Of a stretch of 64,000 bases of DNA, positions 57,645 through 60,234 are shown in pieces. Within the stretch, counting starts at the first letter, position 1; every line of letters begins with the position of its first letter. The stretch is from the NCBI GenBank assembly GCA_002840555.1, contig PHBJ01000009.1, positions 108,026 to 172,025 on the forward strand, given 5' to 3'. The notes under the pieces are model-generated. The model was given only the letters and a program-made list of their open reading frames with translations, was not told the DNA's origin and searched no databases. Both the position numbers and the translations under genes were made by a program. The DNA is from Deltaproteobacteria bacterium HGW-Deltaproteobacteria-13. Its GTDB lineage: Bacteria > Desulfobacterota > Syntrophia > Syntrophales > Smithellaceae.

Positions 57645-57707
57645 ATTCCCGTAGTTCGTCTGTCAGAAAATAATCCTTCATCAGAGGAGCTTGATGATGC
57701 AGTGGGG

Positions 57708-58468
57708 GAATTCGGGGGACATAACACTCAATTATCTTGACTGGCGTCAGAAAATGTCTTAGACATCATCCATGCCGAGAATTTCACGAATAGTTGCCAT
57801 AAATTACCCACATCATATTACTCAGAGGGGCGTGCGTTCCATTACCATCTTCAGTAGCGACAACGACAGGAATCAATATTTACAATTCATCAAGGAAGAA
57901 TCCGAAAGACATGACTTAGAAATACTTGCCTGGTGCCTAATGAGCAACCATGTTCATTTTGTTGCAATACCGCATACAGAAGAATCGTTATCCCGGGGAT
58001 TCGGTGAAGCGCACAAGCGATACACCCGAATGAAGAATTTCAAAGATAATGTACGGGGTTATTTATTTCAGGGGCGTTTTGGTTCATGCGTTCTTGACGA
58101 ACGACACTTGGTGGCTGCCGTGTCGTATGTAGAAAACAATCCTGTTGCCGCGGGAATGGTCAAGCACTCATGGCAGTATAAGTGGTCTTCGGCTGCGTAT
58201 CATGTTGGTGATGTCAAGAAAGATGTTCTAGTAAAAAGTAAAAATCTTTACGGTTTGGTAAAAGACTGGCGTACTTATCTGACAGAACGCATTGATGGAA
58301 AAGATGAGATAGATCATGTAAGAAAAGCGACGAAAACCGGACGTCCGGCAGGTAATCAGGATTTTGTAAAGAAAATTGAAAAACTGACAGGACGTTTGAT
58401 ACAACGGAAAAAGCCCGGACCCAAGAAGAAGCGAGGATGATGAATTAAGTGTTATGTCCCCCGAATTC
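57708..58468 (+). mobile_element. 761-bp element: Y1 (HUH) transposase gene bounded by 26-bp inverted repeats
   Basis: The left end is gaattcgggggacataacactcaatt (57708-57733). The right end is aattaagtgttatgtcccccgaattc (58443-58468). They are reverse complements with 1 mismatch. Confidence 0.7.
57772..58440 (+). CDS. Y1 HUH transposase, IS200-like / REP-associated tyrosine transposase (RayT)-like
   Basis: 222-aa ORF with the HUH motif in CLMSNHVHFVA and a catalytic Tyr region VSYVENNPVAAGMV. The C-terminal tail is basic. Confidence 0.8.
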   Translation: MPRISRIVAINYPHHITQRGVRSITIFSSDNDRNQYLQFIKEESERHDLEILAWCLMSNHVHFVAIPHTEESLSRGFGEAHKRYTRMKNFKDNVRGYLFQGRFGSCVLDERHLVAAVSYVENNPVAAGMVKHSWQYKWSSAAYHVGDVKKDVLVKSKNLYGLVKDWRTYLTERIDGKDEIDHVRKATKTGRPAGNQDFVKKIEKLTGRLIQRKKPGPKKKRG

Positions 58469-58503
58469 TCGCAAGGTATTATGATCCGAAGGCTGGAAGA
58501 TTT

Positions 58504-58920
58504 ATGACCAAAGACCCGATTGGGTTTGATGGCGGGGATGTGAATCTGTATGCATATGTCGGGAATAATCCAATAGATCAGAAAGATCCTTCGGGCCTTT
58601 GGGCTTATTCTGGTAATTATTGTGGTCCGGATTGGACTGGAGGGAAAAAAGAATCTTATACACCTGGTCATAAATATACTCCAGCTACTAATGCGCTGGA
58701 TTCGTGCTGTAGTAGGCATGATAAGTGTTATTATATTTGCAGAAAAGCATCCCCTTGCGATAGTAATGAAAGAGGTAAATGTATGAGAAAGTGTGACAGA
58801 GCACTTGCAAAATGTTCATCTAACGCTGGTAATAAGTATTCTGAACCACTCTGGTGGTGGATGGAATTTAATGATAACCAGCAAGTAGGACCAGATGCAA
58901 AAGATTGCTGCAAGAAATAA
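58504..58920 (+). CDS. orphan (5'-truncated) Rhs C-terminal tip with phospholipase A2-like toxin domain
   Basis: Nucleotides 58471-58528 are identical to 56169-56226 of the main rhs gene. The encoded sequence is ...YYDPKAGRFMTKDPIGFDGGDVNLYAYVGNNPIDQKDPSGLW, followed by a Cys-rich ~100-aa domain with YCGPDWTGG and DSCCSRHDKCY. The only ATG is the internal Met of the core, and there is no independent N-terminus. Confidence 0.7.
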   Translation: MTKDPIGFDGGDVNLYAYVGNNPIDQKDPSGLWAYSGNYCGPDWTGGKKESYTPGHKYTPATNALDSCCSRHDKCYYICRKASPCDSNERGKCMRKCDRALAKCSSNAGNKYSEPLWWWMEFNDNQQVGPDAKDCCKK

Positions 58921-58983
58921 ATCAACAAGAAATGCGTTGGGTTAAAAAGTAATGAAATTTAATTATAAGGAGCCATTTTAAAT

Positions 58984-59310
58984 ATGAAAAAAAAGACAAT
59001 GATTATAATTTTAATGATTCATACTATTCTTATGATCTTTGTTTTTCCTTATAGCTACCTTTTTAATCCAGCTAAAGAGTCGTGGCCATTCTTTTTCGCT
59101 TTTTTCATAGATTTTCCCGCATCAATAATATTTCATAAGGTATCTACTTTATTAAAAATGATTACTAATAACATCTCTGTCGGTTTTTGGTGGTTAACTT
59201 TTTCACATTTTGTTCTTGGTGTAATATGGTGGTTCATAATTGCAACAGTAATTATTAAATTGTGGAAGTTAGTCACAGGGAGAAGGAGTGATAGGGCCAG
59301 AAGCAGATAA
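58984..59310 (+). CDS. small multi-TM membrane protein, candidate immunity protein for the PLA2-like tip
   Basis: 108-aa ORF with AAGGAG upstream and three hydrophobic segments. The role is inferred from its position directly after the orphan tip. Confidence 0.5.
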   Translation: MKKKTMIIILMIHTILMIFVFPYSYLFNPAKESWPFFFAFFIDFPASIIFHKVSTLLKMITNNISVGFWWLTFSHFVLGVIWWFIIATVIIKLWKLVTGRRSDRARSR

Positions 59311-59314
59311 GAGA

Positions 59315-59443
59315 GCAAGGTATTATGATCCGAGGGCTGGAAAGTTTGTTACGAAAGAAACCATTGGGTTTGGGAGCGGCATAAATTTCTATGCTTACGT
59401 GGAAAATAATCCGGTAAACGGAACAGATTCTTATGGCTTGTAA
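59315..59443 (+). pseudogene. second orphan Rhs core-end fragment, toxin domain deleted
   Basis: It encodes ARYYDPRAGKFVTKETIGFGSGINFYAYVENNPVNGTDSYGL followed directly by TAA. It is closely similar at nucleotide level to 56169-56295 of the main gene. Confidence 0.65.
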
Positions 59444-59487
59444 AGGTAAATAGAAGGTAAATAGGAACAGTTGTCCCTATTATTATG

Positions 59488-59566
59488 TAAGTGTGTAGAT
59501 GCTTATAATGCTACATATACAATATTATCAGGAGCAATAAGGACGTGTTCATGCTTTTGCGAATGA
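59488..59566 (+). pseudogene. 3' remnant of the main-type toxin tip
   Basis: It is nearly identical to 56649-56727 (KCVDAYNATYTILSGAIR[R/T]CSCFCE*). It is disconnected from the core-end fragment by a ~45-bp junction. Confidence 0.65.
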
Positions 59567-60234
59567 TGACAATTTTATTAGGGATAACCTTACTATTTAT
59601 ACCGTCTGTATATTCAGATACCTGCAGCGACTATACAAAAGATTTAAAAGTATACATTTCATGGCGGCCATATGATGAAGGTGAATCTTGGCTGTATACA
59701 TGGCAGGCCAACAAAATTCAAAAACAGAAGGCAAGTTATCTCCCGAAAGAACGAATAAATGTGAGACTTGGGGCTAGCGATAAACGCTCGGAAAGTTTAC
59801 CACAGAGTTTGATGCAGCCTGATGACAAGCGCTTTGATACACCATATGAGATTAGTCGCAACGGGGAATTATTAATTGCCGCAATATATAGAAACACGTT
59901 TGCCTTAGATCCATCGAAGATATTTGCGCTGATTGATATTAAAAGAAAGCGGATTATTCGTATTCTGGAAGCGGGAGATTTTGTGCATTCTCTGGCATGG
60001 TCGCCTGACGGGAATTATTTTGCCGTGCTGTATTCTAAAGATGTTACAAAAAAAACGCTTAAAAGATTTTTACCGTTAAATCTTTTTGCAGACTTGGTTG
60101 GACATCCCATTTCATACGATACTTTTTATCTTTCAATATATGATGCTGCGGGAACGCTTCTTTGTACACAAAATATAATTGAGAAAATACCGATTGGTGA
60201 AGGCTATCTTGATTGGGGAATTCGGGGGACATAA
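59551..60234 (+). CDS. exported protein, paralog (copy 2) of the candidate immunity protein
   Basis: About 89% amino-acid identity by eye to 56712-57389. The RBS in this copy is AGGACG, a 1-nt variant of copy 1's AGGAGG; the ATG and signal peptide are the same. The C-terminus changes from ...DWQGK to ...DWGIRGT where the 20-bp transposase-end sequence begins. Confidence 0.55.
   Translation: MLLRMMTILLGITLLFIPSVYSDTCSDYTKDLKVYISWRPYDEGESWLYTWQANKIQKQKASYLPKERINVRLGASDKRSESLPQSLMQPDDKRFDTPYEISRNGELLIAAIYRNTFALDPSKIFALIDIKRKRIIRILEAGDFVHSLAWSPDGNYFAVLYSKDVTKKTLKRFLPLNLFADLVGHPISYDTFYLSIYDAAGTLLCTQNIIEKIPIGEGYLDWGIRGT
60215..60234 (+). repeat. third copy of the transposase-end sequence
   Basis: ggggaattcgggggacataa is identical to 57705-57724, in the same orientation as the left end. 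It is therefore inverted relative to 58449-58468. Confidence 0.8.

What the first reader, a model, noticed from the sequence alone, without database searches (positions are those of the whole stretch)
57705..60234. HUH (RayT/IS200-like) transposase with 26-bp terminal inverted repeats, and a third end copy that brackets the orphan toxin-immunity cassette
The Y1 transposase gene is bounded by gaattcgggggacataacactcaatt (57708-57733) and its reverse complement (58443-58468, 1 mismatch). Classical IS200/IS605 elements have no terminal inverted repeats. Inverted flanking repeats are instead the hallmark of RayT/REP arrangements. The right end stops 2 bp before the truncated 5' edge of the orphan PLA2 tip. 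A third exact 20-bp copy (ggggaattcgggggacataa, 60215-60234) lies at the far side of the orphan cassette, inverted relative to the middle copy, and it rewrites the last codons of the second immunity gene. The layout is therefore end-transposase-end-[tip, immunity, decayed tip, immunity]-end. That makes two adjacent units bounded by inverted repeats and sharing the middle end, the second carrying toxin/immunity cargo but no transposase. This suggests HUH-transposase-assisted movement or capture of Rhs orphan cassettes, which as far as I know has not been described.
Basis: partly seen in the sequence, partly recalled or inferred. Interest (0 to 1): 0.6.

Follow-up and report, generated by a model that had tools for sequence, protein, structure and literature searches.

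The report
RAYT-like TIR transposon inside Rhs array
The gene is a known but little-studied kind of single-strand DNA transposase flanked by inverted repeats (a TIRYT "TIRtron"). The proposed second, cargo-carrying unit is not a working transposon. However, copies of this element's left end turn up at the junctions of Rhs toxin/immunity cassettes across a whole group of Syntrophales bacteria.

Summary
A Y1/HUH transposase gene (57772-58440) is flanked by 26-bp inverted repeats, and a third exact 20-bp copy lies at 60215-60234.

The element belongs to a described class, TIRYT/TIRtron (Di Nocera 2013). These are RAYT-like Y1 genes flanked by TIRs that start GGGGWSAS. Its 19-nt TIR core is a dispersed repeat in Syntrophales MAGs (at least 119 blocks). 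It occurs as gene-flanking pairs, hairpin doublets and solo ends.

The "second unit" fails as a transposon for three reasons:
- The third copy is a truncated left end (19-20 of about 29 nt).
- It is followed directly by an 86-nt IS3-like left-end fragment.
- The two ends face away from the cassette.

The cassette array consists of diverged repeats (87-93% identical) of tip-immunity-downstream DNA.

The co-occurrence is still not accidental. TIRYT-type ends follow the immunity stop codon in all six versions of this cassette that I could read. Three of four Rhs arrays chosen only by Rhs similarity also hold left-end copies, always inside the array and co-oriented with it.

Whether the enzyme makes these junctions or the repeats merely accumulate there is unresolved.

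The parts
57705..57733 (+). Left terminal inverted repeat of the TIRtron: outer GGGGAATTCG plus core GGGGACATAACACTCAATT.
   Evidence: The same core flanks every homologous gene of at least ~45% identity.
57734..57771 (+). 5' leader of the transposase gene (ATCTTGACTGG...). It is specific to the left end and is conserved in relatives and in many solo left ends.
57772..58440 (+). TIRYT gene: a RAYT-like Y1 HUH transposase of 222 aa.
   Evidence: Pfam Y1_Tnp 1.1e-10. NCBIfam REP_Tyr_transpos 56 bits, below the cutoff of 80. HUH and Tyr119 conserved (H62 and Y119 invariant, H60 in at least 90%). Best solved relative is 4ER8 TnpA_REP.
58443..58468 (-). Right terminal inverted repeat. It starts 2 nt after the stop codon.
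58471..58920 (+). Orphan Rhs tip that starts at ARYYDP. The toxin domain is PLA2-like on weak evidence.
   Evidence: 95% identical to 56170-56234. TIGR03696 Rhs_assc_core. Weak PLA2 hits.
58984..59310 (+). Putative immunity gene of the PLA2-like tip: 108 aa, membrane protein.
   Evidence: No family hit.
59307..59443 (+). Decayed orphan tip. Only the conserved core-end part remains and the toxin domain is deleted.
   Evidence: 87% identical to 56162-56296. The alignment shows loss of 56297-56648.
59446..59481 (.). Filler at the deletion junction: GGTAAATAG twice, then the palindrome AATAGGAACAG/TTGTCCCTATT. It may be a remnant of a second TIRYT end type or of another immunity-gene 3' end. Evidence is weak.
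   Evidence: (I21). The fold is not significant.
59488..60216 (+). 3' end of the toxin plus the second immunity gene. It is a paralogue of 56649-57377 at 92% DNA identity.
60215..60234 (+). Truncated solo left end (GGGGAATTCGGGGGACATAA). It supplies the last codons and the stop codon of the immunity gene.
   Evidence: The same truncation after ACATAA occurs in L143 and L024.
60235..60322 (+). 5' fragment of an IS3-family-like insertion sequence. It comprises the terminal repeat TGAACCTACCCCAG..., a leader, and ATG plus about 3 codons.
   Evidence: Homologous to L059 1498-1408 and L117 152-81. In L059 it continues into MKRERKAFSREFKLKAVR, which hits HTH_Tnp_1 at E=0.011.
57380..57700 (+). Copy 1 of the DNA downstream of the immunity gene. 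It holds an Rhs core fragment (57425-57485), the promoter region of the histidine-kinase gene, and that gene's first 10 nt. The copy ends 4 nt before the left repeat.
   Evidence: 91% identical to 60323-60641.
60323..60641 (+). Copy 2 of the same downstream DNA. This one continues into the intact histidine-kinase gene.
52153..57389 (+). Main Rhs gene (1524 aa) and its immunity gene, the head of the array.
   Evidence: RHS_repeat 1e-109..

Best explanation
The segment 57705-58468 is a TIRtron. It is a RAYT-like Y1 HUH transposase gene (TIRYT) with ~29-bp terminal inverted repeats whose core starts GGGGACAT.

By analogy with TnpA_REP and IS608 (inferred, not shown), the enzyme would cut and rejoin single-stranded DNA with Tyr119 and the HUH metal site. 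It would mobilise its own unit and the gene-less hairpin doublets that carry the same arms.

The family is spread through Syntrophales genomes as gene-flanking pairs, doublets, solo ends and partial end copies.

The third copy in the window is one of these partial solo left ends. It is cut off after ACATAA by an IS3-like fragment, so it is a scar and not a working end. The 'second unit' is not a transposon.

The orphan array was built by recombination among diverged modules of tip-immunity-downstream DNA.

Left-end copies are nevertheless a regular component of cassette junctions in the Rhs arrays of this clade. The simplest reading is that the arrays are preferred or tolerated landing sites, and that the ends are then copied along with the modules.
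For: Class and protein:
- The protein family, catalytic residues and nearest solved relative support the class.
- Single arms do not fold (z 0.1-0.3). A doublet folds at -27 kcal/mol with z -11.6.
- The TIR core is conserved around all relatives of at least ~45% identity.
- TIRYT/TIRtron is defined in PMC3733652 and PMC6006769.

Distribution of the repeat:
- At least 119 8-kb blocks in GTDB genomes carry the exact 19-mer, with 11 blocks in one MAG.
- Those blocks hold 203 ends: 38 doublets, 8 gene-flanking pairs and 111 unpaired ends. 21% of ends have an extra partial copy at their outer edge.
- Only about 10 blocks hold a full-length gene.

The third copy:
- It is truncated and is followed by IS3-like DNA.

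The array:
- The repeats are 87-93% identical. imm1 is closer to the L004 immunity gene (93%) than to imm2 (89%).

Association with Rhs arrays:
- TIRYT-type ends sit at the immunity 3' boundary in 6 of 6 cassette versions.
- Arrays picked only by Rhs similarity hold 6 left-end copies in 29 kb and none in 22 kb of flanks. With the window included the count is 8 against 0, P=1.3e-4.
- None occurs in the other 61 kb of the window.
Against: - The end copies sit very precisely. In three unrelated immunity genes the end supplies the stop codon: window 60215, L232 8212 and L233 899.
- Every copy in an array is co-oriented with the Rhs genes.
- The core remnants that follow start at two recurrent places.
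- Passive accumulation in dispensable DNA does not by itself predict these three features.
- TIRtrons often lie at rearrangement junctions rather than simple insertions. Examples are truncated folB in L014, a truncated IS gene in L004 and L220, and the first 10 nt of the kinase gene in the window.
- No empty site, no target duplication and no activity data were obtained.
- The copy number in the source genome could not be counted.
Confidence: 0.6

Rival explanations
1. The TIRYT enzyme itself makes the junctions. It would cut at left-end copies beside immunity genes and at right ends or core sites, and would join cassettes into or out of Rhs arrays. The ends would then act as recombination sites for tip/immunity modules. 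This is a broadened version of the first reader's idea.
For: - Ends of two different subfamilies abut an orphan tip inside the same ~20-codon conserved core-end stretch: the window at 58471 and L004 at about 1540.
- All four closest relatives of the gene with enough flank (85-100% identical) lie next to Rhs-derived DNA, each in a different arrangement: the window, L018, L004 and L143.
- End copies occur at 6 of 6 immunity 3' boundaries and in 3 of 4 unbiased arrays, all co-oriented.
- TIRtrons frequently sit at truncation junctions.
Against: - Homologous cassettes carry different end types at the same boundary, so the ends did not travel with the cassette.
- The unbiased arrays hold no TIRYT gene.
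- At least 14 TIRtrons with at most 81% identical genes and adequate flanks have no Rhs nearby.
- The third copy is truncated and faces outward.
- Shared junction modules may reflect descent rather than repeated events.
- No excision or insertion polymorphism was seen.
Confidence: 0.25
2. Solo left ends have been kept in the arrays because they are useful. Each would act as a portable terminator for the cassette upstream, or as a promoter (the TTGAC box at the inner edge) for the orphan immunity genes downstream.
For: - All array copies are co-oriented with transcription.
- A recurrent module combines the left end, TTGACA, the hairpin GGCGGTTGGAG..CTTCAACCGC and a T-run. It occurs in L021, L039, L227, L232 and L233.
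- The left-end leader normally precedes the transposase gene.
Against: - The promoter scan does not call the left-end TTGACT as a promoter in the window.
- The window's third copy is truncated before the TTGAC box.
- No expression data are available.
Confidence: 0.1
3. A classical IS200/IS605 insertion sequence, or a chance repeat.
For: Pfam Y1_Tnp hit.
Against: - The element has 26-29-bp TIRs and no subterminal hairpins.
- The profile is closer to TnpA_REP than to IS200-type TnpA.
- Each exact protein occurs at a single locus.
- The repeat count is far above chance.
Confidence: 0.02

Closest known systems
TIRYT / TIRtron (Di Nocera, De Gregorio and Rocco 2013, PMC3733652). Mostly subclass 2.1 of TnpA_Y1 in Quentin et al. 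2018, PMC6006769.
   Same: - It is a RAYT-like Y1 HUH gene flanked by long terminal inverted repeats instead of REP hairpins.
- The repeat starts with the GGGGWSAS-type motif (GGGGACAT, 7 of 8).
- The right arm abuts the stop codon.
- The same repeat occurs elsewhere as single, dimeric and clustered copies.
   Different: - No C-terminal HTH domain is detectable by Pfam.
- The host group (Syntrophales) is not among the published examples I read.
- Partial tandem copies at the outer edge, and enrichment at Rhs cassette junctions, are not described in the two papers that mention TIRYT.
RAYT / REPIN and REPtron systems (Nunvar 2010; Bertels and Rainey 2011; TnpA_REP structure 4ER8).
   Same: - TnpA_REP is the nearest solved homologue.
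- The gene sits between inverted repeat copies.
- Gene-less inverted doublets that fold into hairpins outnumber the gene.
- Each exact gene sequence occurs at one locus.
   Different: - The arms are not individually palindromic and carry no GTAG tag.
- The NCBIfam RAYT model scores below its cutoff (56 against 80 bits).
- Copy numbers seen are tens, not hundreds.
IS200/IS605 (IS608, ISDra2).
   Same: - Y1 HUH catalytic core.
- Likely single-strand chemistry.
- The orientation bias is compatible with strand-specific insertion.
   Different: IS200/IS605 elements have no terminal inverted repeats and have distinct subterminal hairpins at each end. Here the ends are identical inverted repeats without self-structure.
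H-rpt (ISAs1-family) elements in E. coli Rhs loci (mentioned in PMC3032704).
   Same: A transposase-type element sits among Rhs C-terminal tips, and its transposition has not been observed.
   Different: The transposase family is unrelated, and no end copies at each cassette junction are reported.
IS1397 / ISKpn1 / ISPpu9-type insertion sequences that insert into REP sequences (PMC8450116 abstract for ISPpu9; the others from memory).
   Same: IS3-like 5' fragments abut GGGG-type ends in the window, L059, L117 and L004.
   Different: Only fragments are seen here, so targeting is inferred from four junctions.

Membership tests
TIRYT / TIRtron | The protein is a RAYT-like Y1 enzyme with an HUH motif and a catalytic tyrosine. 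| tested here: met
TIRYT / TIRtron | The gene is flanked by long terminal inverted repeats that are not REP hairpins. | tested here: met
   The 26-nt arms have 1 mismatch. The arms do not fold. The arrangement is conserved in relatives.
TIRYT / TIRtron | The TIR carries the GGGGWSAS motif. This is shared by many but not all published TIRs. | tested here: inconclusive
   GGGGACAT matches 7 of 8 positions. A neighbouring subfamily (L004 798-1496) has GGGGACAG, which matches 8 of 8.
TIRYT / TIRtron | TIR copies occur elsewhere in the genome as singles, dimers or clusters. | tested here: met
   This holds in related genomes. In the source genome only the 64-kb window could be read, and it has 3 copies.
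TnpA_Y1 subclass 2.1 (Quentin 2018) | A C-terminal HTH domain (Bac_DnaA_C, HTH_23 or HTH_28). | tested here: not met
   No Pfam hit on residues 139-222 even at E up to 10. A neighbouring type in L039 does have Bac_DnaA_C.
RAYT / REPtron | The flanking repeats are individually palindromic REPs with a GTAG tag. | tested here: not met
   and the sequence.
RAYT / REPtron | The protein reaches the curated RAYT model threshold. | tested here: not met
   NF047646 scores 56 bits against a cutoff of 80.
RAYT / REPtron | The gene is single-copy, with many gene-less repeat copies. | tested here: inconclusive
   Each exact protein was seen at one locus. About 10 full genes occur among 119 repeat-bearing blocks. 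Whole-genome counts were not possible.
IS200/IS605 | No terminal inverted repeats, and different subterminal hairpins at the left and right ends. | tested here: not met
   The third copy is 19-20 of ~29 nt and is followed by IS3-like DNA. Both ends have their outer side toward the cassette.
   Cassette homologues carry other end types or other junctions.
Rhs orphan array | A full-length Rhs gene is followed by tip/immunity modules that begin with core-end sequence. | tested here: met

The most novel reading that the evidence does not exclude
TIRYT-type ends are the recombination sites of Rhs cassette arrays in Syntrophales. On this reading a RAYT-like HUH enzyme cuts single-stranded DNA at the left-end copy beside each immunity gene and at a few sites in the Rhs core. 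It thereby installs, displaces or deletes tip/immunity modules. That would supply a mechanism for the 'C-terminal displacement' that builds orphan arrays. It would also give a cellular role to a class of domesticated transposases whose function is unknown.
Probability: 0.2. Interest if true: 0.8.

Novelty: new member of a known kind. Interest (0 to 1): 0.5.

Why it matters
- TIRYTs are mentioned in only two papers of the searched library, and nothing is known about what they do.
- This is a large, well-delimited TIRYT family. It has intact catalytic residues, abundant gene-less derivatives and characteristic partial end copies, which makes it a good system for biochemistry.
- How Rhs orphan arrays are assembled is not settled.
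- One repeat family marks the cassette junctions across several genomes. It is always co-oriented with the Rhs genes and often overlaps the immunity stop codon. That pattern yields a testable hypothesis.
- If the repeats are only passengers, the finding is an ordinary mobile element in a recombination hot spot.

Tried and rejected
- I first read GGTAAATAGGGACAGCTGT (57381, 59456, 60324) as solo ends of a second TIRYT subfamily, because L004 and L018 have GGGAAATAGGGGACAG- and GGTAATTAGGGACAG-type ends. AAATAG is also the native stop context of this immunity family (NK* or QGK*). I therefore keep this only as weak.
- I considered that the third copy plus the next 86 nt was a miniature element sharing the end. 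Homology to L059 and L117 showed the 86 nt to be an IS3-like left end.
- I considered a recent tandem duplication. I rejected it because imm1 is closer to the immunity gene of another organism (L004, 93%) than to imm2 (89%).
- I could not count copies in the source genome. The source contig is in an ENA metagenome.
- A single-sequence search of solved structures found nothing. A 22-sequence profile was needed.
- Rfam gave no match in 56000-61000.
- The library search found no paper that links Y1 or RAYT-type elements with Rhs arrays.
- I looked for target-site duplications around doublets and TIRtrons and saw none.
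Full report
**Observation**

The three copies are real and lie at the stated coordinates.
- GAATTCGGGGGACATAA occurs at 57708(+), 58452(-) and 60218(+). 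Only 0.3 matches are expected by chance.
- The arms 57708-57733 and 58443-58468 differ at one base.
- The ORF between them (57772-58440) is a Y1_Tnp protein.
- The right arm ends 2 nt before DNA that is 95% identical to the core end of the main Rhs gene (ARYYDP...).
- The third copy replaces the last codons of the second immunity gene.

**Local anatomy**

- An alignment of 56100-57720 with 59280-60660 shows that 56162-57700 and 59307-60641 are diverged paralogues, 87-93% identical.
- Each copy runs from the core-end motif through the toxin and immunity gene. It continues through an Rhs core fragment and the promoter of the histidine-kinase gene to that gene's tenth nucleotide.
- Copy 2 lacks the toxin domain. 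56297-56648 is replaced by 47 nt.
- Copy 2 also carries a ~106-nt insertion that begins with the third repeat copy.
- Copy 1 stops 4 nt before the left repeat. The transposase unit plus the PLA2-like tip and its immunity gene therefore lie between the two paralogues.
- imm1 is closer to the immunity gene of another organism (L004, 93%) than to imm2 (89%). The array is not a recent duplication. It is a product of recombination among diverged modules.

**What the element is**

- HUH (H60, H62) and Tyr119 are conserved in 22 relatives (H62 and Y119 invariant, H60 in at least 90%).
- A profile of these relatives finds E. coli TnpA_REP (4ER8) at 1.9e-8 and ISDra2 TnpA only at 1e-3.
- The NCBIfam RAYT model scores 56 bits, below its cutoff of 80.
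- The single arms have no secondary structure, with z near 0. They are neither REPs nor IS200/IS605 subterminal hairpins.
- Every homologue down to about 45% identity is flanked by the same core, GGGGACATAACACTTAATT, in inverted orientation.
- This is the arrangement named TIRtron, with its TIRYT enzyme, by Di Nocera et al. (PMC3733652). They noted the shared motif GGGGWSAS and moderately abundant families of single, dimeric and clustered TIR copies.
- Quentin et al. (PMC6006769) place most TIRYTs in subclass 2.1, which has a C-terminal HTH. I could not detect such a domain here.

**The repeat family**

Most are in Smithella and Syntrophaceae MAGs, with 11 blocks in one MAG.
- Allowing 3 mismatches gives 203 ends: 38 inverted doublets 21-185 nt apart, 8 gene-flanking pairs and 111 unpaired ends.
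- Only about 10 blocks hold a full gene.
- A doublet folds into a 25-bp hairpin with z -11.6.
- One end in five has an extra partial copy of its own outer edge just outside it, for example GAATTCGGGG repeated four times in L110.
- Exact protein sequences were always found at a single locus across many samples.

**The third copy**

- It has 19-20 nt of the ~29-nt left end and stops after ACATAA. The same truncated form occurs beside full ends in L143 and L024.
- The next 86 nt (60235-60322) are homologous to L059 and L117.
- They start with TGAACCTACCCCAG.... In L059 they run into an ORF beginning MKRERKAFSREFKLKAVR, which is a weak HTH_Tnp_1 match. This is the left end of an IS3-like element.
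- The third copy is therefore a scar.
- The outer sides of the right arm and of the third copy both face the cassette. The cassette lies between two elements, not inside one.
It does not have complete ends in the proper polarity, and it does not recur as a unit elsewhere.

**The association with Rhs cassettes**

From the side of the repeat, the association is weak.
- Only 3 of 119 repeat-bearing blocks contain Rhs sequence.
- At least 14 TIRtrons with genes at most 81% identical have no Rhs nearby.

From the side of Rhs, the picture is different.
- The four closest relatives of the gene with readable flanks (the window, L018 at 92%, L004 at 89% and L143 at 85%) all lie beside Rhs-derived DNA. 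Each arrangement is different.
- In L004 a TIRtron of another subfamily abuts an orphan tip within the same conserved core-end stretch as in the window.
- The immunity family is rare, with 7 clusters. In all six versions with DNA, GGGG-type ends follow the stop codon directly. The six are imm1, imm2, L004, L218, L219-221 and L222-226. The end types differ between versions.
- As a control not selected on the repeat, I fetched four arrays chosen only by Rhs core similarity. None has a TIRYT gene.
- Three of the four carry left-end copies with at most 4 mismatches. There are six copies, all inside the arrays (29 kb) and none in 22 kb of flanks.
- With the window included the count is 8 against 0, P=1.3e-4. 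The window itself was selected for the repeat, so the figure without it is the safer one.
- These copies lie at, or within 25 nt of, immunity-gene stop codons where an immunity gene precedes them. In L232 8212 and L233 899, as in the window, the end supplies the stop codon.
- They are all co-oriented with the Rhs genes.
- They are followed by core remnants that begin at two recurrent places, around residues 1054 and 1235 of the window's protein.
- In the rest of the window (61 kb) GGGGWSAS matches are at chance level and lie in coding sequence.

**Interpretation**

The element is a member of a known class, and the composite-transposon reading is not supported. The enrichment of its left end at cassette junctions is robust, and I found no description of it. 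I weigh three readings.
- The arrays are tolerated or preferred landing sites, and the ends are then copied with the modules (0.6). This fits the different end types at one boundary and the absence of the gene from most arrays.
- The enzyme makes the junctions (0.25). This fits the precision, the co-orientation and the frequent location of TIRtrons at truncation junctions.
- Solo left ends are retained as terminators or promoters (0.1). This fits the recurrent module of left end, TTGACA and hairpin.

None of these can be settled from sequence alone.

**Limits**

- The copy number in the source genome is unknown.
- Many junction modules may share ancestry, so the numbers of independent events are lower than the counts.
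- The IS3 and PLA2 assignments rest on weak matches.

Noticed in passing
L227 5530, 8819; L232 7433, 8212; L233 899; L218 about 1355; L143 1905-2010: Left-end copies of the same TIR lie at, or within 25 nt of, immunity-gene stop codons in Rhs arrays of other organisms. All are co-oriented with the Rhs genes. In L232 8212 and L233 899 the end supplies the stop codon.
   Followed up: partly
L227 7437, 8819; L229 4650 (core residue ~1235); window 57425 and 60368; L018 847; L227 5600; L218; L232 5600; L233 980 (core residue ~1054): Orphan modules in different organisms begin at two recurrent positions of the Rhs core. Each is preceded by a left-end-like sequence. The cause could be site-specific formation or shared descent of the junction modules.
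   Followed up: partly
L021 about 457-380; L039 1654-1720; L227 5530-5600; L232 7433-7500; L233 899-975: A recurrent ~80-nt module combines the TIR left end, TTGACA, the hairpin GGCGGTTGGAG...CTTCAACCGC and a T-run. It looks like a portable terminator.
   Followed up: no
GTDB blocks L019-L137, e.g. L110 7210-7260, L059 3540-3590, L032 4360-4405, L094 1765-1815; also L143 1950-1990 and L004 2766-2830: 21% of ends carry partial tandem copies of their own outer edge, truncated at variable inner positions (after GGGG, ACAT, ACATAA or CACTT). These may be footprints of repeated cutting and rejoining or of insertion into existing ends.
   Followed up: partly
window 60235-60322; L059 1498-1330; L117 152-65; L004 about 3570-3660 (minus strand); L220 about 1120-1200: Short 5' fragments of IS genes (IS3-like orfA starts, plus one other HTH transposase start in L220) are cut off by GGGG-type TIRYT ends in five places.
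   Followed up: partly
window 57616-57644 and 60559-60587: The near-consensus promoter of the histidine-kinase gene (TTGACA, 17 nt, TATATT) is duplicated. The upstream copy now lies about 130 nt before the transposase gene and could drive it.
   Followed up: no
L004 798-1496; L018 1204-1878; L039 2182-3153: Two further Y1 subfamilies occur beside Rhs-derived DNA. One has TIRs GGGACAGCNNCNTATT with outer repeats such as GGTAATTAG x4. The other is a 323-aa type with a Bac_DnaA_C domain, and GGGGTCA-type repeats occur in these loci.
   Followed up: partly
window 56706-57389 versus 59545-60234 versus L004 2079-2756: The first immunity gene is closer to that of another organism (93%) than to its paralogue in the same array (89%). 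One of the two modules probably arrived by transfer from a related strain.
   Followed up: no
L014-L017 2388-2507: A homologous TIRtron (79% identical protein) follows a 39-codon stump of folB whose remainder is not on the other side. This is another case of the element at a truncation junction.
   Followed up: no
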